Below are positions 1-52,770 of a stretch of 64,000 nt of DNA, piece after piece. The DNA is taken from NCBI RefSeq assembly GCF_963506605.1, contig NC_083277.1, positions 87,606,001 to 87,670,000 on the forward strand, in the 5' to 3' direction. A program made the position numbers and the translations under genes. Position 1 is the stretch's first letter. Each line of letters begins with the position of its first letter. The notes under the pieces are model-generated. The model had not been told where the DNA came from and ran no database searches. It saw nothing but the letters and a program-made list of their open reading frames with translations. The DNA is from Zootoca vivipara. Taxonomy: Eukaryota.

Positions 1-462
1 GATAGTTCTCCCGATTTGAAGCTGGGGTGGGAAAGGAACCAGAGATTGGGGGCTGAATGTAGATCAGTGTTTGACAGTAGATCCAGTGTGGTCCTGACAC
101 GAGAAAGGAACAGCTATTATGGTAGAAAGAGGGTTATTTTTTCCAACAGCCACATGTCTTTAGCTTACATGGAGCTTTCTGTGTAAGATTTTAAAAGGTT
201 ACAAACAAATATATCTGTTCAGATATAAAAGTATAACTATCAAGTTTATGTTCAGGTCTGTTACCACTAGGAAGAAGGAGGTGTATAAAACCTGCCATTT
301 CTCTACAATCAAAGGCTACTACAAAAGTTGGAATATCTTGGTCAATAGGATGTGTTTTTGTGATTGTGGTTAATTGATTTTGATTTTAGATAAACTCAGT
401 TTACCCACCTCTTTTAGAGAAACCATTCATTTCCCACTTGACAGGGAACACTTCCATTAAGC

Positions 463-598
463 CAGGCATGGCCAAACTTGGCCCTCCAGCTGTTTTGGGA
501 CTACAACTCCCATCATCCATAGCTAAAGGGACCAATGGTCAGGGATGATGGGAATTGTAGTCCCAAAACAGCTGGAATGGTAAGTTTGGCCATTCCTG
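463..598. mobile_element. hAT (Charlie-like) hairpin MITE, family A
   Basis: CAGG...CCTG ends, almost fully palindromic, 8-bp TSD cattaagc/ccttaagc. Confidence 0.85.
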
Positions 599-3500
599 CC
601 TTAAGCAGTCCAGTCTGCTTCTAGTGTTCAACATTATGTGATCATTTTCCTGTGTTGCAAGGCAGACAAACTTCTCTATTTTTTTAAAATAGCTACTCAT
701 TCTCTTTTGTTTACAAACTTCCTTTAAAGTATCATCTAATGATGCATTGTTTTGTAGAGGCTTGGAGAAGAGAAATAGAATTTAAGCCCCTTATTCATAG
801 GTCTTAGCATTTCAGTGTGTTGGGAGAAAACATCCATGCATTTATGCTGAGATGAGCATTGCTCAGTCCAGGATCACTTTCAGAGCTGTGCAACAACATG
901 CTGGGCTGAGGACCGGGGTAAGGGTGGGCAGACGGGGACAGAGTAGCACTTGAGATCATGCAATGTGTTGAGAATGGAAAGGGACTGAGGAAGATCCCTT
1001 GAGCAGAGAACAGGAAGGTTGGATTTGCCTTGTCTTCAGCCAGTTGAATTACATTAACTGTTCTATCTGGGCTTATTCACCACTACGGTTTTAGTTTTTC
1101 AACTGCAGAGTTCTTTTAAGAAACATTTTTTAAAAAATCACCGTAGGATGGAAATCTGTGCGGATACTTCGTGCTGTGAAGCCTTGAGTGCGCACAGCTT
1201 TGGTAAACAGTACAGAGTGAGATTGAGTATTTGTAAAATAGTCTCTTTGGGATAGGCTGATGAAAAACACAAGGAAACATAGCTGAAAGCCCGATGCAGA
1301 GGACATGCCAGCAGTGCAGCTGGATAAAGTAGTGGTTTAAAAGTTGGCAAGAAATGAGGCTATTCAATTAACACCTTCTTTTTTGAGCGCTCTAGACACA
1401 TATATTGGATGAAATAATGTTGACTAGATATCGGAAAGGCAAGAAGGCTGCTTATTCGCAGCTCCACTCTTCTCCACAGTGTCAAATGGTGTCTCAAGAT
1501 ATTAAAGGGTTGTTTTGGTAGGTTTTAAGTTTTGTTGCATGGAGTGGGAAATCTTCTTCTGTACATCAAGTTAATATTCCAGAACAATACTTCTATTTAT
1601 GCTAGTTCTCCAAAAAGTGAGGCACGTGCAGCAAAGTGATCAGTAAAGAAGAAATAGCTATTTTGACAGATCCATGCCTTTCATTTAACCCAGAAGCTAC
1701 AGCATTGGAATGGACAAAGAACAGATTCATGTAGCGTTTTTTAATTATTATTACCAGTAAATCCCAATTTTCAGGTGGGCACAACTGATTGTTAGCTGAT
1801 GACAGAAGCTGTATAGGAGACTTGTCCTAACAAGCAATAATTGTGTAATTAGGGGCTTTTAATCAAGTCATGGAATTCTAATTCATTCTTTGCCTTCATT
1901 CTGCTGAAAGTTAATATCATCCTCATTGAGTGAAATCCATCAGCAATCCTTTGTTCTCCAAACCCTTTGCAAGTGCTAGTGGCGCAGTCGGCCTTTATTT
2001 ATGTACAAGGCAGACAAGTGGTAAAAACTGTGCTATGTCAAAAACTAATATCCAAAAACAGTTGAAGGGTGCATCTTGTTTAATCCTTGCCACCACAAAT
2101 AGCCAAAAACTGCATTTCAAAATCGTATTTTGGGGAGTGTTTCAAAAGTAAAGAAAAGTGAAATCCATTACAGGAGTTTCCTGAGCAAATGTGATATTTA
2201 AGAGCAAGAAATACATGAAATGTTGACAAACAAGCAGTGATGAAGGTCCCCAGCATTATGGTTGTGTAACCCTTCCTGTGTGTGATTTCTCATAGAACTG
2301 GAAAAAACGTAGTGCTGCATCCTTTGCAAGCAGGTAACAGGTTTTAAGCCTGCAGGGGCTCCAGACTCTTAGCTTTCATTTAAGAAAGTAAGTCATTTGG
2401 AGACTTGTGAATAAAGCTAGGAAGCAAAGCATGCAGGCACCATTCTAAGACTGTAGATGGAGAGAAGCTGCTGCTGTTAACCAGTTAATCATGAGAGAGA
2501 AAAGATGCAGATCCCTCAAATATCTCATTCCATCCTTGCTTTACACAATCTTCTGCCATTGTTTTAAACCACCACTACCCCCCCCCCAGTCTTCATACCT
2601 ACTTGCTCCCATGCTATTGTTGTAAGCAAAAAAATGGCTTAATCTTCTGAGTTTATGCCAATAAAACTCAGAGACGTAAGGAGTTAGGAGTCCATCATTG
2701 TTTATTGCAAAGCAATAGGTTACAGTCAGATTGTTCTGCGAAACTGCAACCACGCCCAATGGTCGGGCAGTGGTATTTATAACATTTCAAGCAAAGCATT
2801 TCAGTTTTCACCAATCAAATAAATCACTACCTCATTTCATGTTTAATACGCATGCGCAATAAGCACTGGCAATTTATGGTGATTCAGGTTTGATTCTCGT
2901 CAATATCTGTTGACTAAGCTTTGATTCCCACTGTGTGATGTTACATTGTATTAGTATGCATGCTGGGAACCTGTGTTATGTGTAGCCATTTGCACAATGT
3001 AGCAACAGTTCTAGCTTTGAGCTGCATCTTTGTGATTCACATATTAGCTGTATTCTTGCCCTGGGGGGGGGGGGCAACTTGCAAAATCATCAGTTTCATA
3101 AAGCAATAGGTCACCATAACTGCTCTATTAGAAGTGCACTCTAAGATTTCCAGGGATACACATGATCACATTTATTTTGGCCCTTTGGGCCACCACCACC
3201 ACCACACTATGGACACTGTTGTGCAACCTGCCTACAATTTTGCTCCCCTATCCTGCCCTGACTTCTTGCAAATCCAGCATTGCAATGCCTCACTACAAGT
3301 CCTCCTAGCTGGGTGCACAATGTCATTATGACAATTTTTATTATAACAGAGAGACAAACTTGATATTAATATTTAGGCCTCAGCTTTCTGCTGAGGTTCT
3401 CCCCTTGTCTTTCCTCCCTCACACCTCCCTTATCAGCTCCTTTTCTCTCCAGTTCCCCAACTGTCAAATCTCATCTGACTCTCCCTCACCAACAAGTTTA

Positions 3501-3613
3501 CTTTCAATTGACTAGAATCTCGAATCTTATTCGGTCTCTCCTATCGCCCAGAGCAAGTGCAGTGAATTTGCCTGATCCAGGCCCTGCCTAACAAATTATC
3601 AATAACTAAAGAA

Positions 3614-3840
3614 GTTGGAGCAAAATAAAAAAAAAATCCTTCAGTAGCACCTTAAAGACCAACTACGTTTTTATTTTGGTATGAGCTTTTGTGTGCATGC
3701 ACACTTCATCAGATACCAAGTGTGCATGCACACGAAAGCTCATACCAAAATAAAAACTTAGTTGGTCTTTAAGGTGCTACTGAAGGATTTTTATTTTTAT
3801 TTTGCTTCAACTCAGACCAACACGGCTACCTACCTGTAAC
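3614..3840. mobile_element. Penelope-like element remnant with inverted pLTR (fold-back) and hammerhead motif
   Basis: About 93-bp inverted arms (3614-3706 / 3718-3811), PLE-type tail cagaccaacacggctacc, and an 18-bp direct repeat taactaaagaagttggag at 3603-3620 and 3837-3854. Confidence 0.75.
3676..3719 (-). ncRNA. Minimal PLE-type hammerhead ribozyme motif with one core mutation
   Basis: Minus strand reads UUGGUAU-CUGAUGA-A-GUGUGCAUGCACAC-AAAA-GCUC-AUACCAA: 7-bp stem I, intact CUGAUGA, palindromic stem II, and GAAA changed to AAAA. Confidence 0.7.
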
Positions 3841-4039
3841 TAAAGAAGTTGGAGTTCTTGATTGAAGCACACACAGAAATTGTGTAAAAGGGCAAGAACT
3901 CTGGCCACAGAAGTAAAATAGTGCTGTATTAATAGTTCAAATGATTCCAATTTTTCAGGAAGTCTCTTAGGATAGATTTCTTGAAGTTTATACACCAGGA
4001 GAGGGCCCTGTTTTGAAAATTATTCTTCAGCGAATAGTG

Positions 4040-4150
4040 AAAGAAAGAGGGAGAAGGAAGGAAGGAAGGAAGGAAGGAAGGAAGGAAGGAAGGGGTGAGA
4101 GAGAGAGAGAGAGAAAGGAAGGAAGAGAGGGATGGAAGGATGGAAGCTGG
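4040..4150 (+). repeat. (GGAA)n/(GA)n polypurine microsatellite
   Basis: Direct reading of the sequence. Confidence 0.9.
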
Positions 4151-5386
4151 GAGGAGGGGCGGAAGGGGCTCCCGTCCGTCCCTCCTCTCGCCTTGCTGTA
4201 AAGCAAGCAAAGCGAGAGCCGCTTACACGATCTTTGCTGCGCCTCTCCCAACGAAGCCTGCTCTTGCGAACGGCAGAGACTCAAAACTACCAGTACATGT
4301 TGACTCTAAGACTATATGCTGAAGAAGACTCTAATAAATTCTCAAAACAATGGTTTCTCTGCTCTCAGAACCTGTCACCAAGCAGCTGCTGCTGAACAGG
4401 ATAGCTGAACTTTGATAGTCACAGAGGTCACACAATATATTTTCCTTCATATATTAAATAATACTTTCAACATTTTTCCACACCGTGTTATAAGCGAAAT
4501 GTGGTTGTCCATGTTTAGCCATGGAAGCAGTTGTTTGGGTCAAGGGAATTCTGGCACAGCATTATCATATTATAATAACAACAACTTAGCTTTCATTGTT
4601 CTTTTGTGTTTTTCAAAATTAAGTGTGCAAGTATTCAGTACAATTGTTTTGAATACCTAGCAGTGAGTTAAAAGTTCAGGTTACTGGTGATATCTGATCT
4701 ATAATACATTTGACTGGTTAATTTTTATGTTTGGAAGAAATGCAAGGCAAGTTACACACATTAAATTAGTCTATAACGGAGAAATAAATTCAAGTAGGAT
4801 CCTAGCACAATTAGCCATGTAAAATAAAGATGATGGATAGCCTAGATGACAGACCCCGAGTCTAGATGCTTCCCCTCTGATTTCACTGGACAATTATTTT
4901 CGCATTTGCCAAGGAATATTTAGTGTCTTACAATGTAATTTTAGGATTTGCAGTACTATTGTATTATTCCAGAGATTGCTATAATTCTGAGGTTATTAAA
5001 GAAAATCTGGCAGCTCTTCCAAGTGCCTTAAACGCATTTTGTTGCAATATGAGACATAAAATGGCCTTTCTGAGGGCATCCTTATCCTGCATCCAGATTC
5101 CCATCAGATTTTTCTTAAGCAGCAACAGTCTTTGATGCTTATTAGTTCTGCCTGTTGGATCTTAATGGGATTTTCTCCCATCTACGTTACATTTGGTGGG
5201 GGGAACAGAGAAACTCTAAATTATTTCTGTAAATTTGAAGAAAGCAGCGATACTCCTTTTATACATCAGTGCCAGATAATGAATGTGGTTTGTTGGCCTG
5301 ATATGGCCAGTACAGGTCTTGCCGCATTGCCCGTTTCACTTTAAGCTGCTACTGCAATGTGTAGGCACTTTGCAGAAGTAGTTCAG

Positions 5387-6660
5387 CATAGAATCATAGA
5401 GTTGGAAGAGACAACAAGGGCCATCCAGTCCAACCCCCTGCCAAGCAGGAAACATCATCAAAGCATTCCTGACAGATGGCTGTTAAGCCTCCGCTTAAAG
5501 ACCTCCAAAGAAGGAGACTCCACCACACTCCTTGGCAGCAAATTCCACTGTCGAACAGCTCTTACTGTCAGGAAGTTCTTCCTAATGTTTAGGTGGAATC
5601 TTCTTTCTTGTAGCTTGAATCCATTGCTCCGTGTCCGCTTCTCTGGAGCAGCAGAAAACAACCTTTCTCCCTCCTCTATATGACATCCTTTTATATATTT
5701 GAACATGGCTATCATATCACCCCTTAACCTTCTCTTCTCCAGGCTAAACATACCCAGCTCCCTAAGCCGTTCCTCATAAGGCATTATTTCCAGGCCTTTG
5801 ACCATTTTGGTTGCCCTCTTCTGGACACGTTCCAGCTTGTCAGTATCCTTCTTGAACTGTGGTGCCCAGAACTGGACACAGTACTCCAGGTGAGGTCTGA
5901 CCAGAGCAGAATACAGTGGTACTATTACTTCCCTTGATTGAGATGCTATACTCCTATTGACGCAGCCCAGAATTGCATTGGCTTTTTTTAGCTGCTGCAT
6001 CACACTGTTGACTCAAGTCAAGTTTGTGGTGTACCAAGACTCCTAGATCCTTTTCACATGTACTGCCAGGTGTCACCCATCCTGTATTTGTGCCTTTGAT
6101 TTTATTTGCCCAAGTGTAGTACTTTAAATTTCTCCCTGTTAAAATTCATCTTGTTTGCTTTGGCCCAGTTGTCTAATCTGTTAAGGTCATTTTGAAGTGT
6201 GATCCTGTCCTCTGGGGTATTAGCCACCCCTCCCAATTTGGTGTCATCTGCAAACTTGCTCAGGATGCCCTCAAGCCCATCATCCAAGTCATTGATAAAG
6301 ATGTTGAATAAGACTGGGCCCAAGACAGAACCCTGTGGCACCCCACTAGTCACTACTCTCCAGGATGAAGAGGAGCCATTGATGAGCACCCTTTGGGTTT
6401 GGTCAGCCAGCCAGTTACAAATCCACTGAATGGTAGCATTGTCTAGCCCACATTTTACCAGCTTCTTTACAAGAATATCATGGGGCACCTTGTCAAAGGC
6501 CTTGCTGAAATCAAGATAGGCTATATCCACAGCATTCACTTCATCTACCAGGCTTGTAATTCTGTCAAAAAATGAGATCAGATTAGTCTGACATGACCTA
6601 TTTTTCAGAAACCCATGCTGACTTTTAGTGATCACAGCGTTCCTTTCTAGGTGCTCACAG
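5387..6660 (-). mobile_element. CR1 LINE, 5'-truncated, disrupted ORF2 (RT domain and C-terminus)
   Basis: ORFs 6102-6692 ([35 protein letters not shown]) and 5458-6003 ([16 protein letters not shown]). CR1-type ATTCTATG 3' tail; cagcataga repeated at both ends. Confidence 0.95.
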
Positions 6661-7894
6661 CATAGACACTTCTTTGAGTCCTGTCTGTTCATTCAGTATA
6701 CCTGCAGTACATAAGCTCCGCAGCATACATAGGCTGTTCTATTTATTACGAACCAATTTCATTTCAGACCTCACCAGCACTGCTGTAGGTCAACTTCCCT
6801 CCCTACCTGTGTCTGTTGAAATGTTCTTTGGGTTTCAGTTATCTTGGAATCTACATCTCAGGACTCTCTAGGTGTGCCTAGTCTTCATACAAAGAACTGG
6901 GGTGCTCATGGAAAAAAAATAAGTTTCCCATATCTCTAATGCCTGGAATATTCCACGATATTGTGCCTGTTGTCACAAGATAAATGGGAAAGGCAGGTGT
7001 GAGGGAGGAGGGATAGGCAAGGAGGGAGGAGTTCTCATATTACAATTCTGGTTGGAAAAGAACTAATGGGGCTGTAATACTCATCTCCCTTTATAGTCCA
7101 AACATGATGGATTTGAGTGACATCAGTAATGCCATGTTTTCTTGGCATACAAATTGAGATGAAAATGGTTCATTGAAGAGAGAATTTCGTCATCTGCTGC
7201 TGTGAAAACAATGAAGTAGAGGGGAAGAGAAAATAAAGAGGGAAACACATGCTGACTATAAAACATTTAACACAGGAAGAGGCTAAATACTGCAGATTGA
7301 GGTTTTCTCTAAACTTTTTTGTGGGTATATTCAGAATTGTTTGGGATTTATAGATTCTTGGTTACGCATAAAAAATAGAATTTCCACAAGGCAGCATGTC
7401 TGAAGTTGCTTAATAAAGGAACTTTTTATGTGCATAATGCTTGCTGGGTCTGGCATAAATATCAGCTTTGCAGAAGAATTTTATTTCTAATCTCACTTCC
7501 TGTCTCAGTGTTGAATTTGCAAGCAATGCTTTCAGATTATGCTTAGAGCAGTGTGGCACAAAGAGAAGTTGTCAAAGACTTCAGTGTTCAACAACAGTGG
7601 GCTGGTTGCTAAGGGAAGTGGTGCTTTTGGGTGGACAGGACTCAGCTTCTATGTCCCGTGGTATATTTATATCCCGTGGTATATTTTTCTGTCTACAAAA
7701 TATCGCAATACCATGTGATATATGTTTGAAGCTAAAATTAAAGCAGAGAAACAGTCCCCTTTTTGTATGGTACAACAAGTTGTGCTTCAGAGTTAATGTA
7801 AACGGTCTGTTTAAACAAGTACTACCCATATGATAGAATTTGATGCCTAAAAACTATGTTTTTATATTGAAATAATGATAATTGGATTTCTGTA

Positions 7895-7956
7895 CAGTCA
7901 TACCTCATGTTACGTCCGCTGCGGGTTACGTCTTTTCAGGTTATGGATGCGCCGAA
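7895..7956. mobile_element. Tc1/mariner (Tigger-like) MITE, left end only
   Basis: TA|CAGTCATACCTC start resembling the other TA-CAGT MITEs in the window; no right TIR found. Confidence 0.5.
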
Positions 7957-7977
7957 CAAGCACAAACTTACACAGTG

Positions 7978-8620
7978 TGCCCTCCCACCTTACCTCGGCC
8001 GGCAGTTTGACCTACATGCCGCCACTCTAGGGCCAGGGACTCCCGCAATCAGCCCTTTAACAAGCCCTGCAAATGCCGCCACCTGGGGATGCATGAAATG
8101 CCTCCCCCCAACTCGAAGATAGACTAAAGGATACCTTGCCAAGGTGTAAAAATCACCACCCAAGGGGCCTTGCCGCCAAGAAACCCACAGCTGAAGGACA
8201 AACAGCTTTCCCCCCACCATGTCATTCTCGCCCAGGAGCAGAGCCAATACTGTCAGTGGGCCATGTGCCACTGCCTCCCTCAGCAGCATGGGCATCAAGG
8301 CGGGCCAACGCATGCCCCGCCGGCCCATCCAATAGATGTGTAACTTGGGGTGGATGTCGATACTGCGGCCCCAGTCATGTGACGAGGCATAGGCCGCCAC
8401 TCAGTGAACGATGCTATGCCCCACCACCCATATCTTCGTTCTAGGCAGACCTCAATCTGGTTGCTCACCGGAACACGTCCTGCAACCTGGAAGAAAAGAA
8501 ACAAAGTGAGGTTTGGCTGAAGGGGTCGGCCTCCTTCCCCTGGCCCTGCCCCCTTCCGTCCATCCATTGTCCTCCCAGGCCAAACCCCGCCCACCTGTTG
8601 GAAAGGGAGGGTGGAAATTC
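7978..8620 (-). mobile_element. Ngaro/DIRS-group tyrosine-recombinase retrotransposon fragment with degraded SGNH hydrolase ORF
   Basis: Minus frame reads KIWVVGHSIVH*VAAY...IYWMGRRGMRWPAL...LALLLGENDM, giving SGNH block I (GHS), block II (G) and block III (GxND). GC-rich relative to flanks. Confidence 0.75.
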
Positions 8621-10519
8621 TCTCTTATATATAAAATCATAAGCATGTTGTCAGTTGCAGTTCACTTGGTCACAGGCAGGTGGTAGTTCAAACTTCAGGG
8701 AGACAACCTGCTGGGCCATCAACCTAGCCAAGGTGAGGAGAAGGAGGGATATGTAGAATAAAGGTACAGGTTCAGGAAAGGTGAGGAGAAGAGAACCAGA
8801 AGGTGGAGGAGTGAGCAGGCAAACCTAGGCAAGCCTTGGAGGTATGGCGAACTGAGGGTGAGGGGTTTTTTTTGGCAAGATGTAAAAGGGAGAGGGTTGG
8901 TGAGGGAGTGGGGTGGGGAGTAAACAGAGTTACAGCCCCTAGTTATGAATAAATGTATAAAATGAGATATTAGTGCTTGTAATATCATTTTTATTAGTGC
9001 TATTCAAATTCTTAATACTTGTTTCCTCACAAAGGAAGCTATTAGATTTTGAAACCGCATACCTGCACACATTCTGTTAGCTAAAGAATTGATTTTGCAA
9101 CTATTGCTTTTAATTATGCACGTTCTTAGGGTTGGCTGGACTTCCATTTGTGTGCATGTGTTTCCTCTGCTTTCCCCCATGTTTAGACATTGAAAATGAG
9201 CCTTATGGAAAGGAGAATTCCCCCCAGAACATCCTTTGATACGAATGTGAGTTGTGGGTTGTGCCAAAGGCTTATATTTCACATTTGCTTTAGACTCCAT
9301 GTCCGAGAAACAAGCGCCTTCCTGCTTTCAACAAGACAAAGTCTGTGTTGTGGGTAAAAGGTCCTCAAGGTATTCTTGACACTGCCTTTCCTAATGGTTC
9401 CTTGTTGATCCATATGTATGGCTATGATCCTTGACCAGCTCCCTATCTTAATAGGAACAACCTGTGATGAGAAGTATATGGAGTCTTGAGATGTATAAGA
9501 AATCCATTCATCCACACAAACAAAAATTGACCCGAGGGCAGGACCACCAAGAATGTAAAGGAGTCCCCAGGAGTACTTCAGATGTAACAGTTCTCTTTGA
9601 CTTGTTTTTACAATATTTTTTTACAATGTTCCTTATTTTATTATTTTATATATTAAGGTGAAATTGAAACTAGAGTGAATTATGATGGCACACGTTAACA
9701 TTTGCGGGGATAAATTTGAGACTCCTGGAGTGTACCCACCCAAACATTACAGATGAGAATGTACTGAAGCATTAATTCATACGAAGAGTTTTATTCTAGG
9801 TTTCTAAATTAAGTTGACATGCATAGTTTTCAATTTTTGATTGAATATTTATAGGAGTTGTGTTGTAAAATCTTTGCCTCTTGTACACCCCACTTATTTC
9901 TGAATATCTGTCGTTGGAAAGAATGAGTTACAAGTGAATATTGGATATAAAGTTTAAAAATTCTCCAGCTTCTTTTTGTATACTCTCTTGGAGTTCCAGA
10001 GGATGATAGCAATAAAGATCTGGTTTCTCTGAAGACTCGGGATTATAAGGAACTATAAAAATAAGCTGTGTTTAATGGTCTCTGAGATTTATGAATCCAA
10101 TCTCTTCCTTTGGGGACTGGACTGGCTTGGTTTTAAAACTGTAACTCTCTGATTGGCAAACTTATTTTCTCCCTATAGTCATAGATGGTATCTGATGAAG
10201 CCAGAACTGAGGAGTTGTAATAAAATAAGAGGCCTTTAGTGTGTGTGGGGGGGGGGTTCTGTTTGCTGCTAAGATACTTTTGTAAATGTGAAATTGCCAC
10301 TGCCAAGCAGACACATAAAACAGTAATAGTGAAAATCCTAAAGTGATCAGTGGAGTCTAGTTAATGGTCTGTTAATTTGTGGCAACGTAATATCACTTGT
10401 TTGGATTGACATTCTTGCCTCTTCATGTTTTTTTCATGGGGTATTGAAGACACCAAAAGTGCTTCTTTAGCTCCGCTGAGCATTTCTTTTGTTTCAAAAA
10501 AGAAAAGAAAAAGGGATTG

Positions 10520-10623
10520 TATTCAACTAAGTTTTACTCAAAATAAACCCACTGAAATTAATGAACATGACCAAATTGGGTCAATTATTTCAGCAAGTAC
10601 TTTGATAATAGCTTAGTTGAATA
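10520..10623. mobile_element. Old hairpin MITE (unclassified squamate family)
   Basis: Perfect 12-bp inverted ends tattcaactaag/cttagttgaata; related decayed copy near 57016-57115. Confidence 0.55.
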
Positions 10624-11437
10624 GCACTTGTGAGTTCTTTTTGTTTGTTTGTTGCTGGAAGCCCCAATTTCACCCCAGTGAACATATAAAAAATCCTATG
10701 CGGAAATACTTCATTTCTGTTCAATAAATGGTATTAGTAAATACATGATTACCCATTTTTGCAATGTCATTCTTGAATGATTTTTTTTACTTTGTTATAT
10801 GAAAAAAGTAGAATTCCACAGACCTGCAGTAGTTCTTACATGTATTCTTTCTCTCCTGCACACAGCCAGATCCATGTACATGCATGTAAGCAGAGCATTC
10901 AGCTCCATTCATTCATTCATTCATTCATGCACACACTCTCTCAACATCCCTCCTGTCTTTCCTAGAAATACCAGGGATTTCTTTAATTTATGAGAAGCAA
11001 ATAACAGTTTCTGAAATGTCCAGTGAAGTTTCATAGGGATTTCATGTCTGTCCCCCTCCACAGTCACTTGATACTTCAGTAACCTGGGAAATAAATTAAT
11101 ACTCCATCTCATGTCTTCTTCACCCAATCTCCCTGGAAATACCAAAGATCCCTTCTCACTCCATCACTGCATAATCAGCGTGTTTCTTCCTTCCTCTGAG
11201 CATGGAGGGAAAAGATTGGGGGAAGGCAGGAGAGATGCTTTATTGTCTCCCTTGTAGAATGGAACAGGCAAGACAAGAAACTATTTGCAGAAGCACAGTT
11301 TCTCCCACTCCTTCTCTACTCGGTCACGTTCCCTCTATGGCAGTGAGTGCACCATGGAACTTAGCACCCATTTTTCTAGCGAAAGGATCTGTTTCTCTCA
11401 TTCCATTTCCCTTCTTGGATCATTCCATGCTAAGATT

Positions 11438-12088
11438 GTTGTTGTTGTTTAGTCGTTTAGTCATGTGCGACTCGTCGTGACCCCATGGACCAGAGCATGC
11501 CAGGCACTCCTGTCTTCCACTGCCTCCCACAGTTTGATCAGACTCATGTTGGTGGCTTCGAAGAACACTGTCCAACCATCTCGTCCTCTGTCGTCCCCTC
11601 CTCCTTGTGCCCTCCATCTTTCCCAACATCAAGGTCTTTTCCAGGGAGTCTTCTCTTCTCATGAGGTGGCCAAAGTATTGGAGCCTCAGCTTCACGATCT
11701 GTCCTTCCAGTGAGCATTCAGGGCTGATTTCCTTAAGAATGGATAGGTTTGATCTTCTTGTAGTCCATGGGACTCTCAAGAGTCTCCTCCAGCACCACAA
11801 TTCAAAAGCATCAATTCTTCGGCGATCGGCCTTCTTTATGGTCCAACTCTCACTTCCATACATCACTACTGGGAAAACCATAGCTTTAACTATACGGACC
11901 TTTGTCGGCAAAGTGATGTCTCTGCTTTTTAAGATGCTGTCTAGGTTTGTCATTGCTTTTCTCCCAAGAAGCAGGCGTCTTTTAATTTTGTGACTGCTGT
12001 CACCATCTGCAGTGATCATGGAACCCAAGAAAGTAAAATCTCTCACTGCCTCCATTTCTTCCCCTTCTATTTGCCAGGAGGTGATGGG
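11438..12088 (-). mobile_element. BovB (RTE) LINE, 5'-truncated
   Basis: ORF2 C-terminus (LDSILKSRDITLPTKV...ELWCWRRLLRVPW), (CAA)n tail, 11-bp TSD atgctaagatt at 11427-11437 and 12089-12099. Confidence 0.95.
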
Positions 12089-12945
12089 ATGCTAAGATTA
12101 TTATACAGCTAATCCTTCAACACCTAGAACATAATCAGAACCATCTGATTAAAAAAATACATTTGAAAAAACACCCAATTTCCTATTCTAAATTGCAAAC
12201 TTCATCTTCACTTAACTACTACTTGCTCATGTTGCATTGTTATGTTTATCTAGTTTTAAAATCTAGAAATATGCAAGTGTTGCCTAGTTAGTTAATACTG
12301 TACTGTTTTAGGATGTACCATAGTGTGGGCTGCAGTGTCTGCATTTATCTCTGGGGTGGAAGTAATGAGAAATTATTCAGAGTGGCTTAAGATGGGTGGA
12401 AAGGCATGCAGTGAACACGTGGGGGAGAGAGCAGAATGAATGTGGGGTGGTGAGAGGAAAGACTGCAGCTGAAGGTGGGAGAAGGAAAATGAGATGATTA
12501 CTTGGAGAGGAAAAAGATAAGAGGGGGGAGCTGGTTAAAGTGCATCAGATGGGAAAAGACAGACATACTGATGGATTTGGTTAGTGATTTGAGACAGGAA
12601 AGGGGGTCTTGGAGAGTTGATACAAATAAGTTGATTCATCTGTCAAACGACTGAGGAGGAAGTAGGGAGGCAAGTTTAGGATTTGTGAGAAGGATATGAA
12701 AACTAAGTATTTAATAGCATGAAATAGATTAGGAATATTTTAATGAAAAATGAGATTAATTAGTACTAGGTTTTCTGGCCTTTTGAAATTATTATATTTA
12801 AATTATAAATGTAAACTATAAATCAGTAGGATTGCTTGATGCAATTTTGTATGCATTGTTTTCTTCATCCCCATTTAATTCCACCAATCTTATCTTAACA
12901 CCATCCCTTTTATTCTGGCGCTTGAGAGGCGAGTGCTGGTCCCTT

Positions 12946-13112
12946 AAAGGTAAAGGGTAAAAGGACCCCTGACCATTAGGTCTAGTAGTGACCGACTCTG
13001 GGGTTGCGGCGCTCATCTCGTGTTATTGGCCGAGGGAGCCGGCGTACAGCTTCCAGGTCATGTGGCCAGCATGACAAAGCCGCTTCTGGTGAACCAGAGC
13101 AGCACATGGAAA
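12946..13112 (-). mobile_element. Sauria SINE, 3' half
   Basis: (ACCTTT)-type tail; near-identical to the 3' part of the full copy at 45351. Confidence 0.9.
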
Positions 13113-15391
13113 ATAGACAAAATTGCATCATCCTAACACACCATGAAGATATTGGTAGGTTGGGTAAACCACAAGGTTTGCAGAAGTACCCCCAAACCCC
13201 AAACTCCTAATGCTTTAGGGGAAAGAACCCAAGGTGGTGAGTATGCAAATAGTCCAATAAGGACTGAACATGCTCATTGGCAGCAGAATGATGGTTTACT
13301 CTGGAGGGACAACAAGAAAAAACGAAAACCGGGTGAAAGGTGGAATGGAAGATGGCAAGTCTGGCTAGCTGGAACAGTGAACAGGAGCATTCCTTATACT
13401 TTCAGTCTTCTCTCTAATCATCCCCACACTCATGTATACATTAATACTGACTAAACAATGCTTGATGAAGCACCTGCACACTTGCTTATTCATTCACAGT
13501 AAACTTTTATTTATTTTTTATACTATCTCTTACCATGAAGCATGAACAAAGCCAATATGTTCCAAATTCTGAACTGCTTGCACAGAAGCATAACTTTTAA
13601 TATATCTTGCGCAGCTTTTAGTATGGTTGGAAGTGCATGATAAAGTGTTTGAAACTGTTGGAATTGTATGGTTGGAAAGTACTAGAATCTATTCTGGAAG
13701 AAATATAGTTTGGAACAACATTTTCCCCTTGTAATCATCTCTTCAAAGAATAATCCTTACACTATTACTTTTTCTTTGACAGATATAGGATGGGCAGTTT
13801 TGCGGCACTTGAGTAAGGACCTCATAAATTAAAAACTTTATGAATGGTTGCCATAGATCATATCCCTTTACTTTCAGTGTCTGGGAGCATTTAATGCTTG
13901 TTGCAATTAAGAATGATTTGATAAAAATGTTTACACTTTTTGGGAGGAAGAGGTCATTTCCAGTCACCTGTTATTTGTAGCCCCTCTGAGGTTAAGGGAC
14001 ATTACAAAGCAACACTTTTCAGTTGGGTTGGCTTAATGTTTTATTTATGTCATTTCTCAGAGTTTGTGTAGATTCCAGAGAGGTTGGGGGGGGGGTCATG
14101 ACACTTCTATATTCCAATCACTCAAGAGGATAAATATTCTATGAAATTCAAACCGTGGATGAATGCTGAAGGTGAAACAAAAAATACTTTTGTTTAGGCT
14201 TTGGTGATTTGTTACTGTTGCCATTATATTAAAAAATAGCATTCAAAACTCAGCCTTTTTTTCTTGGTTAGGGAAAAGGGATATCTTTTCCAGAGCGGGA
14301 TATGTTCATGTCATCTGACCCAGCGCTCACAGTATATGAAATCTGTAAAATATATTTCAGAGCTGTATTTAAAGTTTAGGAATAACCTAATTTTTCTATT
14401 TTGTGATAGAAAATGATAGATTGTAATGAAAACACACAGTAAAATGCCAGATTTAAAATTAAAGTATCAATTGGTAAAAAGAAGGTTAACATCCATAATG
14501 TATTTGGGTTGTTTCTTTCATTAGACTTTTTTATTAGTTTATGTGGAGTAGGATCAAGTTGAATAATAATGCATTATTGGGAATGTTAGAGGTTGTCAAC
14601 TTTTCATGCATGTGAGTAAGTGAGGGAGAGAGACTGTGTGAGAGAGATAATGAATAAGTGTGTGGGAGTTCTTTGGTTACTGGTCATATGTAGAAATACT
14701 ATTTTCCATTATAACTCTTCTCTCTTTTTTATCTCCAAACATAATTACTCTCTGTTTTATCATGTACTGGAAATTCATAGGTGAATTATAATTTTAATTT
14801 AGTTTAGTGGAAAGTAGACTCATAAAAATATAGTTCCTCTTATCTACGTCTTGAATTCTCTTTGAACAATAACTGCAATGATGCAACAACATGGCTTGTT
14901 TGCTAAAGTGAAATGGAATTAACTTTTGTACTATGGAATATAATTTTTTGCAGATTACATCTGGGGGAAAGGAGGGATAGTGAGAGAATGTGCAAAAGGG
15001 CACAGTTGGAAGATGGTGAAAGAGAACTATGTTGGGGTCGGAAGCAGAAGAGTAATTAATCAAATAAGAGTTCTGAAACCCAGAATCCATGTAGCATATA
15101 ACCTTATTATTGGAATCTGAGTATCCTGTTCTGTGAAGGAGCTCATGGAGCAAAGGAGGTTGGTTGTTGCAGCACCAAGGAGAACACCAAGGAGTTTGCC
15201 TGTTGCCTTACAATATTTTGTGCTCAAACTATGGCCCCACAATTGCTCTGGGGTAGAGCTGGTTTTTGCCCTTGGACCTTACCAAGGGGTTTGTTTTTCC
15301 TCCCCAATACCAACTCACCCATAAATTCCAGTGAGTAGGGCAGATCAGTCAGGGTGGGATGGGGCTCCTGAAAGAAGGAGCAAGGCCACTA

Positions 15392-15620
15392 CAGTGGTAC
15401 CTCTGGTTAAGAACTTAATTCGTTCCGGATGTCCGTTCTTAACCTGAAACTGATCTTAACCTGAAGCACCACTTTAGCTAATGGGGCTTCCAGCTGCTGC
15501 CGTGCCGCCACCTTATGATTTCTGTTCTCATCCTGAAGCAAAGTTCTTAACTTGAGGTACTATTTCTGGGTTAGCGGAGTTTGTAACCTGAAGCGTTTGT
15601 AACCTGAAGCGTTTGTAACT
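15392..15620 (+). mobile_element. Tc1/mariner MITE, right TIR missing
   Basis: TA|CAGTGGTACCTC start, internal taacctgaag repeats; reverse-oriented relative at 32711. Confidence 0.8.
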
Positions 15621-16981
15621 TCCCTTTGACACCCATTCCCTTTTGGAGATGTGGGAGGGAGACAGCATGGGGCATTAGGGTGTGTAAGAAAATCCCTCCC
15701 TCCCTCTCAATGTTCTTGCTCTTCCCTGCTTGCATGTGATATGCTGTTTAGAAGTGAACTGTTATTCTTCTTAGGGAAATTGGCTCTGCAGTCCAACAAT
15801 TTTTGTGGATAACACCTTTTGGATTGTCATTTCAAGATAACCTGCCTTTTTGTTATGCTGAGGATTTATTGTGCTCCGACTGTACTCTCTTGTCTGATTA
15901 CAATTAGCAGGTTTATTATCCCATTTCAGGTCAGAGGGGTCATTTTTAGCCAGCTGCTATAAGAAGTTCAACTACTCCCTTCATGACCAAATTAATATTA
16001 CTAAGAGTTGGCCATTATCTTGCCTTAAAACTCCCTCTAGGAGTGTATATTAGACTCATAATTGCTGTTCCTGGTTCCTGTATAATAGATTAAAATATAA
16101 CCAATAAAATTTGCAGTGTGAAGTTGTGCAATGGGCCAACAACAAAAAACTCTCCCACTGAAAGGTTTGTTTGCACTACTGATTCTACATTATGAAATTT
16201 TGCACCAAACATACTTGCTTCAGATACCTGGGAAGATGGCCCCCTGGAACACTGGCTTTGAAAGGTTTACTTTGCTCATATCTGAAGTCCTTCTGGAATG
16301 CTGAAAATATGAAGCAGATCTCTACCCTGTCACATTGCTTTAGTTTCAAAAACCAGCATTCCAGTGGTCACTAAACAGCTTAAAAGAGCTTATCAACGCA
16401 GTCATGTGTTTGAAGTCTGAAAGTGCTATATTGTTTTGTGTACAATCCACATAAGATGCACTTTCAGAACTGGATACCCACCATGCAATTTCTTAACTGT
16501 AGTGGTTTCATGACCACCTTAGCCTGTTCCTCCTCTCCTTTCAATGTGAGGATTAATATGCCTGATTATTTTGAGTTAGAGGTAGGGTAGGAGAGGAAGA
16601 ACAGATCAGAAACATCTGCTGAGCACCTGTCCTGGTGTGATTGGAGGAGCTGATGGAGCTGGCACTGATCCCTATTAAGCTCTAGCTTGCCTGGCAGGAC
16701 AGAGTACCAAACTGTGGCTCCCAGCTGTGGGAGCTCCAGTGTCCTGCTCCTCCAACCATAGCCCTGGTAGTAGAGGGAACCCAGGACCCAGAGCTTAATG
16801 GAGGCACCTCTTTCCCCACCTCTCTTACCTAAGTATTGTACTAACTGGGGAGTTCTCTAGTGGAAGAACAGTAAGGCTCAAATGTATTTATTAAGAGATG
16901 TGCATCTTGTTTTATTTTAAAGCAGTTTAATGCTGACAGCTCTGTTTAACAAACTTATGGAATGTGTTGATGAGGTCACTA

Positions 16982-16982
<1 letters not shown>

Positions 16983-17029
<47 letters not shown>

Positions 17030-17075
17030 GCCACCCATCTGACTGGGTTACTCCAGTCACTGAACGATTTCAAAC
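16983..17075 (-). repeat. (TAT)n microsatellite tail plus L2-like 3' end
   Basis: TAT run followed by cccatctgactgggtt..ccag.cact, a motif also found at 27862. Confidence 0.65.
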
Positions 17076-17164
17076 AAATGAAGGCAGCTCTGCTTGTTAA
17101 AATAAGCATTTTTGAGTTTTATTTACACTAAACTTAGTCTTGCTGAGGTGACCACCTTCTTCTA

Positions 17165-17273
17165 TTATAGAATCATCATAATTATAGAGTTGGAAGGGGC
17201 CATAAGGGTCATCTAGTCCAATCCTGCAATGCAGGAATCTTTTGCCCAGTGTGGGGCTCGCATCCAACTGAGC
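17165..17273 (-). mobile_element. CR1-tailed SINE or CR1 3' fragment
   Basis: tagaatc...atagagttggaagggg...gtcatctagtccaa resembles the CR1 3' end at 5387-5435. Confidence 0.6.
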
Positions 17274-17275
17274 TA

Positions 17276-17482
17276 CAGTGGTGCATCGCAAGACGAAATT
17301 AATTCGTGCCGCAAGTCGCTTCGTCTAGCGATAATTTCGTCTTGCGAAGCGCAGGTTGCTGCGGCAAAAACAAAACAACCCGCCGAAAAACTTGGTTTTG
17401 CGAGTCACCAAAAACATCGCAAGACACTTTTGTCTAGCAAGTTTTTCATTGTGCGAGACATTTGTCTTGCAAGGTACCACTG
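17276..17482. mobile_element. Tc1/mariner MITE
   Basis: TA TSD on both sides; TIR cagtggtgcatcgcaagac / gtcttgcaaggtaccactg. Confidence 0.85.
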
Positions 17483-18300
17483 TATTTGTATAATTGAAAA
17501 CTAGATCTTCACTTTATAGATTACATTCTTATTTCTACATCAGTGGGATTGTTGCAGAAATCTAGCGTGACTAATGAAGGTAGATTAGAGTAAAACAACT
17601 TTGCTGCTAAAACTGGGCAAGTGACCAAGATAAGCATAGTTCCAGTAAAGGTTTGGAGAAATAGTGTGTAAGATATTCTAGACTCTCGTGTCTGTCTGCC
17701 CCCCCCCCCGATACTTGCCTTTCAACGGTTAGAATGTCAGTTCCAGTGGACCAGCAGTAGAGTGGGAGCACATGTAATGTATCTACATGGGGCCATAGAC
17801 ATGATTCTTGGGATGCATACGTTTTACATCTTAAAATTGCATTGTGGCCAAGGAAAGCATTCTTTCTGCTTCTGAAAAGTGCCATTGTTTGGCATTCGTA
17901 ACTGCAGTCCAACTGACACAAAATCTTTCCCACACTTTTACTACATTTTGAAAACATTTTAATGCATTAATCTTCTAAATGCAGGAGAAGATATCCTTAT
18001 ACTCTTGCTGACTTCATCTTGGAGGTTAATCTGAAGAAAGATGGGAAGGACTTGTCCTAATAAATCTTGCAACAGACTTTGGCAGCAGGACGTTATGATA
18101 AACCATGGAGGCTAGGAGAGCGTCAGGTTCACGTGATCCCCATATCCCACTGTAGGTGCAAGAAAGAGTAGTACATCTAGTTTGTGTGTGGACGCTGCTT
18201 GAATAATTGTGAGCATACAGGGGTATGGAGAAATCACCTTTTATAATGCGTTCACTGAGACTGGGTTTGCTTTACATATAAAGTATAAGAGTTCATTATG

Positions 18301-19167
18301 TATGTGGGGTTATGTGAAGGGTTAAGTTTCCAATGGCAGCTGGCAAGTGGCAGTTACTTGCATGAGACTGGGCTGGGAAAAGTTGGGTTCTCTTTATACT
18401 GAGTCAAATTTTGCTTATGATTGGCCTGCTGGATTGAAGTTCTTTGTCACCCATTGGACAGGGGAAAATGGTCCAATGAGGGGAGAGAATTCTATGCCAT
18501 TCAGACATGATTAGTTGAAGGGTAGACTGGGTTGAACATAAAAAGGCCAGTTTTGCCACTGCTCAGGAGAGTTCGACTGCTAAGACTGTGGACTGGAAGA
18601 AGAAGAATCTGGAAGAGAAGTCTGGCGTTCAGGCAGGTAGAGGTTACTGAAGCTAAGGAAAGCCTAGAGCAGGCATCCCCAAACTTCGGCCCTCCAGATG
18701 TTTTGGACTACAATTCCCATCATCCCTGACCACTGGTCCTGTTAGTTAGGGATCATGGGAGTTGTAGGCCAAAACATATGGAGGCCCGCAGCTTGGGGAT
18801 GCTTGGCCTAGAGGTATAGCCTGCCCCCAAAGAGCTGAATCACTGGCTTAAACCAAATATCCACAAAGAGGCCATCAAATGCTGGTGAGCAATAAGGAAG
18901 AGTTCAGCAAGGAGTTTCTGGAACTGACCATAGAGGGAACTGCCTGCAAGCTTGACTCAGGGAAAACTAGCAAACGTTTTCTGTACCTGGTGGCGGCGAG
19001 ATTGCTGCTGCTTTTGAAACACATCTAAAGTGCTGCAATTACTGGGTCATATTTTAAGTTGTCGGTAAACAGCATAGTATAAATACATGGTGCCAGCAAT
19101 TAGAATGTTTTGAAATATACAGTATGTACTATGCTGGGGGTGAGAGTAAAATAGGAACCTCCACACA
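18301..19167 (+). mobile_element. Probable solo LTR
   Basis: Imperfect inverted ends tatgtggggtt / aacctccacaca, CCAAT at about 18473, TATA-like cataaaaagg at about 18537. TSD not clear. Confidence 0.4.
18670..18805. mobile_element. hAT hairpin MITE, family A
   Basis: Perfect 8-bp TSD gcctagag; TIR caggcatccccaa. Confidence 0.9.
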
Positions 19168-19225
19168 TAATTGGTGAATCAACAGTGGTACAGTAGATAG
19201 AAGCTGCTTCTCCGCTTATAAGGTG

Positions 19226-20108
19226 TAACTTATATGCAGAATTCATCATGCGAAAGGCTGGACTAGATGAATCCCAAGCCAGAATTAAGATTGCCGGAAG
19301 AAATATCAACAACCTCAGATATGCAGATAACACACCCTTGATGGCAGAAAATGAGGAGGAATTAAAGAACCTTTTAATGAGGGTGAAAGAGGAGAGCACA
19401 AAATATGGTCTGAAGCTCAACATCAAAAAAACCAAGATCATGGCCACTGGTCCCATCACCTCCTGGCAAATGGAAGGGGAAGAAATGTAGGCAGTGAGAG
19501 ATTTTACTTTCTTGGTCTCCTTGATCACTGCAGACGGTGACAGCAGTCACGAAATTAAAAGACGTCTGCTTCTTGGGAGAAAAGCAATGACAAACCTAAA
19601 CAGCATCTTAAAAAGCAGAGACATCACCTTGCCGACAAAGGTCCGTATAGTATAGTTAAAGCTATGGTTTTCCCAGTAGTGATGTATGGAAGTGAGAGCT
19701 GGACCATAAAGAAGGCTGATCGCCAAAGAATTGATGCTTTTGAATTATGCTGCTGGAGGAGACTCTTGAGAGTCCCATGGGCTGCAAGAAGATCAAACCT
19801 ATAAATTCTGAAGGAAATCAGCCCTGAGTGCTCACTGGAAGGACAGATCCTGAAGCTGAGGCTCCAATACTTTGGCCACCTCATAAGAAGAGAAGACTCC
19901 CTGGAAAAGACCCTGATGTTGGGAAAGATGGAGAGCACAAGGAGAAGGGGACGACAGAGGATGAGATGGTTGGACAGTGTTCTCGAAGCCACCAACATGA
20001 GTCTGACCAAACTGCAGGAGGCAGTGGAAGACAGGAGTGCCTGGTGTGCTCTGGTCCATGGGGTCACAAAGAGTCGGACATGACTAAACGACTAAAAAAC
20101 AACAACAA
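19226..20108 (+). mobile_element. BovB LINE, 5'-truncated, with stop and frameshift
   Basis: Reads NINNLRYADN...; TAG at 19488-19490; 5-bp tatag duplication near 19650; CAA tail. Confidence 0.95.
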
Positions 20109-25814: not shown

Positions 25815-26547
25815 GTCGTCATCGTCTTTGGCGATCACTCGTAGCTGAGTAAGATTGTCTTCCATAAACACGGTTTTAACAATGGGTCCGTAAGTGACTG
25901 TGGAGGCCAATTCTGGATCCACACGTCCTTCCACAGTGGGGACATTGGTTTCCATGCAGGAGTTGATCACGGTGTGGATTTGCCAAGCGTGCCTTCCTCT
26001 TAGCACGTTTCTCCCTTGCGTCCTGAGATCGAGTTTCTTCAAAGCCCACGACACCTTTGTTAAAGGCTGTTCTCCAACTGGAGCACTCGCAGGCCAGTGT
26101 TTCCCAGTTGTCAGTGTTTATACTACATTTTTAAAGATTTGCCTTGAGACAGTCTTTAAACCTCTTTTGTTGACCACCAGCATTATGCTTTCCATTTTTA
26201 AGTTTGGAATAGAGTAGTTGCTTTGGAAGACGATCATCAGGCATCCGCACAACATGACCAGTCCAACGAAGCTGATGTTGAAGAATCATTGCTTCAACAC
26301 TGGTGATCTTTGCTTCTTCCAGTACACTGATATTAGTTCGCCTGTCTTCCCTAGTGATGTGTAAAAATTTTCGGAGACACCGTTGATGGAATCCTTCGAG
26401 GAGTTTGAGATGGCGCTTATAAGTGGCCCATGTTTCACAAGCATATAGTAAGGTTCGTAGTACAATAGCTTTGTAAACAAGCATTTTGGTTTCCCTGCGA
26501 ATGTCCCAGTCCTCAAACACTCTGCACTTCAATCGGGAGAAAGCCGC
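25815..26547 (-). mobile_element. RTE-clade LINE (distinct from BovB), 3' fragment
   Basis: ORF 26131-26562 (TKMLVYKAIV..LLYACETW...FHQRCLR...QLRWTGHVVRM.DDRLPKQLLY) followed by a 3' UTR ending in a GAC/GAT-type short repeat. Confidence 0.9.
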
Positions 26548-41212: not shown

Positions 41213-42134
41213 TATGATTATACTCCATTGGTAATAGAGTGCCATTGATCCCTATATAAAGCTGGCTTGTTAGGAGACAGACCACTCACTGATCTACTTT
41301 CTGCTCAGATAAGCAAGCAGGTTTCCCAGCCTTGATACCCAAGTTCACTTATTATTATTTAAAAAAAACCTGGAGATCTGAATTGGGATTGAACCTGGGA
41401 TCTTCTGCATTCAAACTGCCATTGCACCTCATCCCAAAAATCTAAAAAATCTAAGTAAGTGACCCTTACAACAACCCTTTAAAGTAGGTCTTATAGTCTG
41501 AGGGATAAAAGGGTTGTCAGGTCATCCAGTGAATTCATGTCTGAAGGGAACGTGGAATCATAGCTCATGCTGTTAACCCTTATGCTGCATCATGTTGTTC
41601 GCACCTGATTCTTAAGTTGCTTCTTTTACCGGTACTCCTACAGTACCATGTTATGGTGTGCTATTTTATTTTCTACAATGTAAAGCCATGTTCTTCTGTT
41701 CCTAGTATTAAATGCTGAAATGCTGGTCAGTCCTCAATGCATCCTGCCAGCATATGCCACATTGACTTAATTGGGATTTACTGAATATTTTTTTAAAAAA
41801 TAAATAAAATAAAGCATTTATATATCACTTTTCAAGTTGTATCTAAATGGTGTAAATAAACCTCCCAAAGCATACAATTTTTGAAAAGCAATGTGGCATC
41901 AGGAAAAATCAATGCAATAAACAGGAGAAGCTAGAGGCCTATTCTTTGTGAAATAGGTGATCTACTTGAGGAATCTTGGCTGCTCAAGGAGTATTATTTG
42001 CTCTTTAGCACCACCTTTGGAGAAATTCAAGGTAAAAGAGAAAGCCATGTGGTTTGGTCGAATTGAATTTTGTTCATTGTATGTAACTCTTGTTAAATAG
42101 GGTCCCTTTGAACTCTACAATTCTGTGACTAGGG

Positions 42135-52674: not shown

Positions 52675-52770
52675 GTTTTTACCTCCCATGGACCAACTGT
52701 AATTATGCCAACTTGGTTCTGTTCCCGAGAATGGTTTTGTCATGTGGGCAGATTTGATGAAGCGGGAAAG
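52675..52770 (+). CDS. B3GNTL1: Internal coding exon of B3GNTL1/QTGAL (queuosine-tRNA galactosyltransferase), 96 nt, phase 0-0
   Basis: Acceptor tgcttctttttcag| and donor AAG|gtaagc. Translates [32 protein letters not shown], close to the remembered human B3GNTL1 segment [32 protein letters not shown]. Confidence 0.95.

What the first reader, a model, noticed from the sequence alone, without database searches (positions are those of the whole stretch)
3603..3854. Penelope fold-back carrying two complementary, individually broken hammerhead ribozymes
Seen: a hairpin with arms of about 93 bp and an 11-nt loop, flanked by an 18-bp direct repeat. The minus-strand copy has stem I, CUGAUGA, palindromic stem II GUGUGCAUGCACAC and the GCUC site, but GAAA has become AAAA (consistent with CpG decay). 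The plus-strand copy (3718-3748, host pre-mRNA sense) keeps GAAA-GCUC-AUACCAA but lost CUGAUGA at the inversion junction. Established: Penelope-like elements carry minimal hammerheads with very short palindromic stem III that are thought to work as dimers. Inference: the two copies together reconstruct the ancestral active ribozyme. They could in principle complement in trans through palindromic stem II, although the long hairpin or a sense-antisense duplex would compete. The host pre-mRNA strand carries no complete core.
Basis: partly seen in the sequence, partly recalled or inferred. Interest (0 to 1): 0.7.

Follow-up and report, generated by a model that had tools for sequence, protein, structure and literature searches.

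The report
Ordinary decayed Penelope hairpin insertion
This is one of many thousands of short mirror-image stubs left by a lizard jumping gene that carries a small self-cutting RNA; the two broken halves here are likely a by-product of how the stub was made plus one common mutation, and they are predicted to be unable to repair each other.

Summary
The hairpin, the 18-bp direct repeat and both hammerhead remnants are real. The locus is a short head-to-head insertion of a young Neptune-type Penelope-like retrotransposon (900-aa RT + CX4CX2C + GIY-YIG ORF, 3,030-bp tandem arrays) in a 77.6-kb intron of QTGAL/B3GNTL1. The genome holds 18,426 exact intact cores and 1,800 with the same G12A change; the mirror CpG change occurs 1,488 times. 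The truncated arm is a stock junction (228 loci). G12A is not enriched at such junctions (39 of 342 against 8.9% genome-wide, p 0.10), and 11 of 30 inspected G12A-junction loci have the same 'complementary' layout. Trans rescue is predicted not to work: each half costs about 55 kcal/mol to free, the pair gains 35, and a rebuilt unit still lacks helix III. One useful by-product: arm 5' ends pile up tenfold just below a TATA/initiator-like motif (35 of 99) and not at the cleavage site (1 of 99), so these stubs are likely run-off copies of the first 100-130 nt of uncut RNA, primed twice. The scan has noted such Penelope hairpins before on other genomes (8 notes). Ordinary; low interest.

The parts
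3603..3620 (+). Left copy of target-site duplication (12 bp unambiguous, 3609-3620; the first 6 nt also match the element's tail end)
3619..3716 (-). Tail-less arm of the Penelope pLTR end, positions -3 to +92 relative to hammerhead C3
   Evidence: BLAST to natural full-length unit L186
3679..3716 (-). Minimal type I hammerhead with G12A: stem I 5' 3716-3713, CUGAUGA 3712-3706, extra A 3705, stem II 3704-3691, A12 3690, A13-A15.1 3689-3687, G15.2-C16.2-U16.1-C17 3686-3683, stem I 3' 3682-3679
   Evidence: sequence; intact form in 18,426 exact copies
3707..3717 (.). 11-nt hairpin loop = 5' half of the hammerhead plus one junction base (3717) not templated by the family sequence
3718..3842 (+). 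Tailed arm of the pLTR end, starting at +7 relative to C3; host-sense
   Evidence: 118 of 119 nt match locus L017
3718..3748 (+). 3' part of the hammerhead (stem II, GAAA, GCUC, stem I 3'), no CUGANG
3813..3842 (+). About 30-nt 'tail' present on one arm only; in full-length units it lies just before the ORF start codon
3837..3854 (+). Right copy of target-site duplication
52675..52770 (+). Context: next QTGAL/B3GNTL1 exon; the previous exon ends about 24.9 kb before the window, so the insertion is in a 77.6-kb intron

Best explanation
This is a short head-to-head insertion of a Neptune-type Penelope-like retrotransposon, likely made by priming reverse transcription twice on one uncut RNA, and it is predicted to have no ribozyme activity. 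Shown: family identity, one tailed and one tail-less arm, 12(+6)-bp duplication, G12A at a CpG, intronic position. Inferred steps: the endonuclease nicked both strands about 12 nt apart; each nick primed cDNA at one of two internal start sites about 35 nt apart (hence the tail on one arm); both cDNAs ran to, or near, the RNA's 5' end, which lies a few nt before the hammerhead; the two cDNA ends were joined with small trimming, which kept CUGAUGA on one arm and removed it from the other. Later, methyl-CpG deamination turned G12 into A on the complete arm. Any transcript of either strand would fold into a 93-bp hairpin that buries both remnants.
For: Family: hammerhead module sits in the pLTR of 900-aa ORFs with RVT_1 (E 3.5e-12), GIY-YIG (E 5.9e-5) and CX4CX2C, in 3,030-bp tandems and in large inverted pairs. 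Abundance: 21,476 exact matches of a 3' motif, 18,426 intact cores, 1,800 G12A (15), 1,488 mirror CpG change, 228 short-loop junctions, 292 stem-II-centred fold-backs. G12A at the junction 39 against 303 intact, Fisher p 0.10 versus genome. 86 of 94 head-to-head pairs have exactly one tailed arm, 8 none, 0 two; a subfamily marker agrees between arms in 76 of 81 pairs against 32 in shuffles (loci partly chosen by junction pattern). 5' ends: 35 of 99 arms chosen only by a 3' motif end at -10 to +14, about ten times the per-base rate elsewhere, 1 of 99 at +26 to +35 where the cut site lies; a TATA-like box starts at -34 and TCACT/TCAGT lies at -8 to -4. Folding: forcing the hammerhead fold costs 40 kcal/mol; opening either copy 55. 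Literature: inverted truncated copy plus one-sided tail is the typical layout (PMC8557442, PMC3846280); two internal RT starts on both strands and uncut RNA as template in vitro (PMC11167929); G12A slows cleavage >500- to 10^6-fold (PMC2553840).
Against: No transcription start was measured; the pile-up could instead reflect RT pausing or self-pairing at the hammerhead stems. The 99 arms come from the first 2.9 Mb of one chromosome. Arm concordance also fits one cDNA folding back or later gene conversion. G12A exceeds the mirror change 1.21-fold (p 6e-8), which simple symmetric CpG decay does not explain. PMC11167929 studied a Poseidon element, not a Neptune, and reported priming without homology, whereas tail ends here share a mean 1.9 nt with the target (no chance control was run). 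PMC3846280 proposes self-priming on an antisense template for head-to-head inversions.
Confidence: 0.85

Rival explanations
1. The two broken copies complement in trans through self-complementary stem II and cut RNA.
For: Isolated 44-nt and 31-nt fragments co-fold with a 14-bp intermolecular stem II and stem I, -35.3 kcal/mol, placing CUGAUGA and GAAA at one junction. Protein help for a Penelope hammerhead is reported (PMC11167929).
Against: Freeing each half costs about 55 kcal/mol; the sense-antisense duplex is -454. The rebuilt unit has no helix III, so a third or fourth strand is needed; in the usual double-hammerhead fold CUGANGA, stem II and GAAA come from one strand, so neither core is complete (from established topology, my reasoning). 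It needs an antisense transcript; flanks had no read depth in 3 runs (about 6% of each read). The layout arises at chance rate, and thousands of intact copies exist.
Confidence: 0.02
2. One cDNA folded back on itself at the hammerhead stems and copied itself (self-priming), rather than two primed cDNAs being joined.
For: 292 fold-backs are centred exactly on the 14-nt stem II palindrome; the commonest short-loop junction (15 of the first 100 listed) extends stem I by the bases that self-pairing would add; arms share markers; PMC3846280 argues for self-priming from junction palindromes.
Against: The tailed arm is about 30 nt longer than the other, so it cannot be a copy of the tail-less arm; in long inverted pairs arms of unequal length join far from the hammerhead; many 5' ends lie upstream of the stems and also in insertions with no close inverted partner. 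The tail-less arm could still be a partial copy of the tailed one where the tailed arm is the 5'-longer one, but here it is the shorter.
Confidence: 0.1
3. The hairpin matters as host double-stranded RNA (editing substrate or small-RNA source), and inactivating changes are favoured by selection inside genes.
For: A 93-bp stem in host-sense pre-mRNA is predicted. G12A exceeds the mirror change 1.21-fold genome-wide. Intron depletion of tandem hammerhead repeats is reported in Xenopus (bioRxiv 10.64898/2026.07.22.740005).
Against: No reads could be assigned to this locus: reads on the element carry other copies' letters at 3666, 3788 and 3809 and the flanks are empty. The G12A arm is on the strand opposite to the host transcript, so its loss would not protect the pre-mRNA. 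miRNA-family hits are all below gathering score.
Confidence: 0.03

Closest known systems
EN+ Penelope-like elements, Neptune clade (PMC8557442, passages read)
   Same: Single ORF, RT then CX2-5CxxC linker then C-terminal GIY-YIG; partial tandems forming pLTRs; inverted 5'-truncated copy; 30-40-bp tail on one end; hammerhead in the pLTR.
   Different: This copy has no ORF sequence and is at the short end of the range. No tree and no Repbase comparison were run, so the family name is unknown.
Minimal hammerheads of metazoan Penelope-like elements (PMC4209133, results and discussion read)
   Same: Type I, 4-bp helix I, extra nucleotide between 9 and 10.1, G10.1-C11.1, palindromic 15.2-16.2 with no loop III; that paper also notes pairs on opposite strands 100-700 bp apart and motifs in reptiles.
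   Different: Both copies here are defective; stem II with its loop is a perfect 14-nt palindrome.
Poseidon_Ac of the green anole (PMC11167929, main text read)
   Same: Hammerhead at the pLTR-ORF junction, two 3' end points that define the tail, no reads piling at the cut site.
   Different: Other clade (no zinc-finger linker in Poseidon); here the start codon lies after the tail, not in stem II.
Adineta vaga Pen2a (PMC3846280, passages read)
   Same: Head-to-head inverted pLTR, 31-bp tail on one arm, short duplication, TATA about 20 bp before an initiator-like TCACT.
   Different: Those are full-length inserts in a low-copy family; no hammerhead was discussed in the passages seen.

Membership tests
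EN+ Penelope-like element | Single ORF with RT and C-terminal GIY-YIG endonuclease in the parent family | tested here: met
   900-aa ORF in L186, Pfam RVT_1 and GIY-YIG, DKG and YIDD motifs; window arms 93% identical to its pLTR
EN+ Penelope-like element | Tandem arrangement forming pseudo-LTRs | tested here: met
   3,030-bp tandem units in L186, L190, L193
EN+ Penelope-like element | Inverted 5'-truncated copy with a 30-40-bp tail at one end | tested here: met
   this locus; 86 of 94 pairs have exactly one tail
Neptune clade | CX2-5CxxC linker between RT and EN | tested here: met
   CX4CX2C at residue 760; shared with Nematis and Naiad per PMC8557442
Neptune clade | Placement in an RT tree with named Neptune elements; match to a repeat library | not testable with these tools
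   no Repbase or Dfam library on hand; no tree built
Minimal type I hammerhead (intact family form) | CUGANGA, extra base, G10.1-C11.1, GAAA, palindromic 15.2-16.2, UH, helix I | tested here: met
   18,426 exact copies, backward control 0
Minimal type I hammerhead (this locus) | Complete catalytic core on one strand | tested here: not met
   G12A on minus, CUGANG absent on plus
Rfam hammerhead families | Score against Rfam models | tested here: not met
   no hammerhead family at E up to 10 for this copy or an intact copy
Hammerhead ribozyme | Self-cleavage | not testable with these tools
   no pile-up of read starts or ends at the cut site of an intact unit in 3 RNA runs; such libraries are a weak test
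Non-LTR retrozyme | Tandem repeats with a complete hammerhead in each unit | tested here: not met
   inverted, not tandem, and both cores broken

The most novel reading that the evidence does not exclude
The thousands of short Penelope hairpins in this lizard are twice-primed run-off copies of the first 100-130 nt of an uncut pLTR transcript: their junctions map the element's transcription start just ahead of the hammerhead, show in the genome that hammerhead cleavage is not what sets the template's 5' end, and extend the in vitro Poseidon result to a Neptune element that still has many intact ORFs.
Probability: 0.55. Interest if true: 0.35.

Novelty: new member of a known kind. Interest (0 to 1): 0.12.

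Why it matters
The locus itself matters little: it is one decayed stub among more than 20,000 arms. The split-ribozyme idea would have been striking but the counts and folding argue against it. What is of some use is the family: it is young, has many intact 900-aa ORFs and tens of thousands of datable ends, so it offers a large natural data set, and a protein for bench work, on an open question: how Penelope-like elements make inverted ends and what their hammerhead is for.

Tried and rejected
Rfam search of the locus and of an intact copy: no hammerhead hit; miRNA-family hits are hairpin artefacts below gathering score. Pfam on 150 of 170 window ORFs of 70 aa or more found only RT fragments and a weak C2H2 hit, no host gene; Pfam on 4 single exons found nothing; PDB search of one exon found nothing; the host gene was found by a splice-site scan and a homolog search. 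Run search: no RNA holder listed. RNA reads from 3 runs of one study showed no splice joints in window 1-20000, where no exon lies. A cap-derived G as origin of the junction base was considered and dropped, since the likely start lies at about -6, not -3. Run-off from the hammerhead cut site was rejected (1 of 99 ends). A separate self-copying mini-element was considered unlikely: junctions vary from copy to copy and arms match several subfamilies of the parent. An intron orientation test was not possible without annotation; in the 284 kb held only 5 arms matched a strict motif. Whether the insertion is polymorphic was not tested. The paper on dimer cleavage by Penelope hammerheads (PMC5785218) is not held; it was seen only as cited in PMC6765202.

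Full report
Observation. The window shows a hairpin with arms 3613-3706 and 3718-3812, 93 predicted pairs and an 11-nt loop, between two identical 18-bp repeats. The minus strand carries CUGAUGA, one extra A, a 14-nt self-complementary stem II, AAAA in place of GAAA, and GCUC; the plus strand carries stem II, GAAA, GCUC and the 3' strand of stem I but starts just after CUGAUG. Two details change. The family's stem I is 4 bp; the three further pairs come from the junction. Six of the 18 repeated bases also match the element's tail end, which leaves 12 bp; duplications of 12-14 bp were found in 42 of 50 sibling loci.

Identity. A search of the genome with the right arm gave 1,112 candidates (40 scored). 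Copies that reach further upstream run into a GIY-YIG reading frame. A protein search listed many 925-codon open frames, and 8 fetched regions show 3,030-bp tandem units and large inverted pairs, with the hammerhead in the pseudo-LTR and the start codon just after the tail. The 900-aa protein matches Pfam RVT_1 and GIY-YIG and has CX4CX2C between them, the linker that marks Neptune and Nematis according to PMC8557442 (passages read). No tree or repeat-library match was possible, so 'Neptune' rests on that motif and on the vertebrate host. A flanking exon is 98% identical to a lacertid QTGAL/B3GNTL1 protein; mapping that protein places exons on + at about -24,950 and at 52,675, so the insertion lies in a 77.6-kb intron and the plus arm is host-sense.

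Is the pair of defects special? Exact pattern counts over the genome, each with a backward control of 0: 21,476 for a 3' motif, 18,426 intact cores, 1,800 with this G12A, 1,488 with the mirror CpG change, 228 with a short-loop junction like this one (15 of the first 100 listed have the identical junction, this locus included, counted by eye), and 292 fold-backs centred on stem II. Exact matches are lower bounds. At the junction pattern, 39 copies have G12A and 303 are intact, 11.4% against 8.9% genome-wide, Fisher p 0.10; the pattern also catches some junctions where both arms are complete. Of the first 30 of the 39, 11 (this locus included) have the same layout: G12A on the complete arm, GAAA kept on the truncated arm. 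The layout is therefore what a stock junction plus ordinary CpG decay produces. One result does not fit symmetric decay: G12A outnumbers the mirror change 1.21-fold (p 6e-8). Sequence context, editing of cDNA or host selection could each cause this; I did not test them.

Can the halves complement? In context either strand folds at about -152; opening either copy costs about 55, forcing the hammerhead fold costs 40, and the sense-antisense duplex is -454. The rebuilt unit would have no helix III. PMC4209133 (introduction, results and discussion read) reports no cleavage by a single minimal motif and low activity for dimers; PMC6765202 (passages) says the same. PMC2553840 (passages) gives a >500- to 10^6-fold loss for G12A. 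In the usual double-hammerhead fold each core takes CUGANGA, stem II and GAAA from one strand (established topology, recalled), so the A-form and the truncated form give two dead cores; a working complex needs three or four strands. Three RNA runs (one study, about 6% of each read) gave no depth in most unique flanking bins, and reads on the element carried other copies' letters, so transcription of this locus is not shown on either strand.

How it was made. In 94 distinct head-to-head pairs among the 285 loci held (partly chosen by junction pattern), 86 have exactly one tailed arm, 8 none and none two; a subfamily marker agrees between arms in 76 of 81 scorable pairs against a mean of 32 in 5,000 shuffles. 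PMC11167929 (main text read) found that an anole Penelope protein nicks and extends both strands, starts at two internal sites that bound the tail, and uses uncut RNA. For 99 of 100 arms chosen only by a 3' motif (first 2.9 Mb of contig C1; one lacked flank), 35 have their 5' end at -10 to +14 relative to C3, 1.4 per base against about 0.14 elsewhere in -177 to +50, 36 reach beyond -178, and 1 ends within 5 nt of the cut site. A TATA-like box begins at -34 and TCACT or TCAGT lies at -8 to -4, the spacing PMC3846280 describes for a rotifer pLTR (passages). I infer that transcription starts at about -6, that internal priming in the first pLTR yields cDNAs of only 100-130 nt, and that joining their ends trims a few bases. 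The hammerhead's 5' half sits in the first 15 nt of the RNA, so one arm often keeps it and the other loses it. The start site is inferred, not measured; pausing or self-pairing at the stems is the rival, and the 292 palindrome-centred copies suggest that self-complementarity does guide some joins. Reads laid on an intact unit showed no pile-up at the cut site or a clear start, a weak test.

Comparison with what is known. The layout is the textbook one for endonuclease-positive Penelope-like elements (PMC8557442, PMC3846280, PMC2377424 passages), and opposite-strand pairs of minimal hammerheads were noted in PMC4209133. Six literature searches showed no paper on split or trans-complementing Penelope hammerheads, nor on 5' ends piling at the pLTR start; the library lacks most subscription papers, PMC5785218 is not held, and no supplements were read. 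The scan's own notes list 8 similar hairpins in other genomes; they are unchecked notes, and I ran the arm-concordance test after reading them.

Verdict. Real, ordinary, most likely dead. The family is a convenient system for studying Penelope insertion, which is the only part worth following. Interest 0.12.

Noticed in passing
genome-wide: The inactivating CpG change (G12A, 1,800) exceeds the mirror change (1,488) by 1.21-fold, p 6e-8; cause unexplained.
   Followed up: partly
L186:3568-9657, L190, L193: Tandem arrays of full-length units with intact 900-aa ORFs and identical pLTRs; the family looks recently or currently active.
   Followed up: partly
L230 (G000:C1:2777435-2779741): Four 598-bp tandem units, each with an intact hammerhead and the ORF's 3' end: a retrozyme-like array derived from this family.
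   Followed up: no
about 11 kb past the window end (window coordinate 75149-75180, in L277): A second fold-back of the same family in the same gene, centred on the stem II palindrome, with the G-to-A change on both arms.
   Followed up: no
L211, L216, L038, L255: Junctions with several short repeated pieces of the region just before the hammerhead, as if synthesis restarted more than once at the RNA's 5' end.
   Followed up: no
L186:3553-3700: RNA reads cover the hammerhead-tail module hundreds of times deeper than the ORF, mostly as reads running into unrelated flanks, i.e. short copies inside host transcripts.
   Followed up: partly
window 6105-6692 (-), 19197-19487 (+), 39975-41285 (-): Reverse-transcriptase fragments of other retroelements in the same intron (Pfam RVT_1).
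   Followed up: no
window 25879-26130 (-): Weak C2H2 zinc-finger match below Pfam cut-off, next to the N stretch.
   Followed up: no
window 4141-4197: Small G/C-rich hairpin beside a purine microsatellite; only sub-threshold Rfam hits.
   Followed up: no
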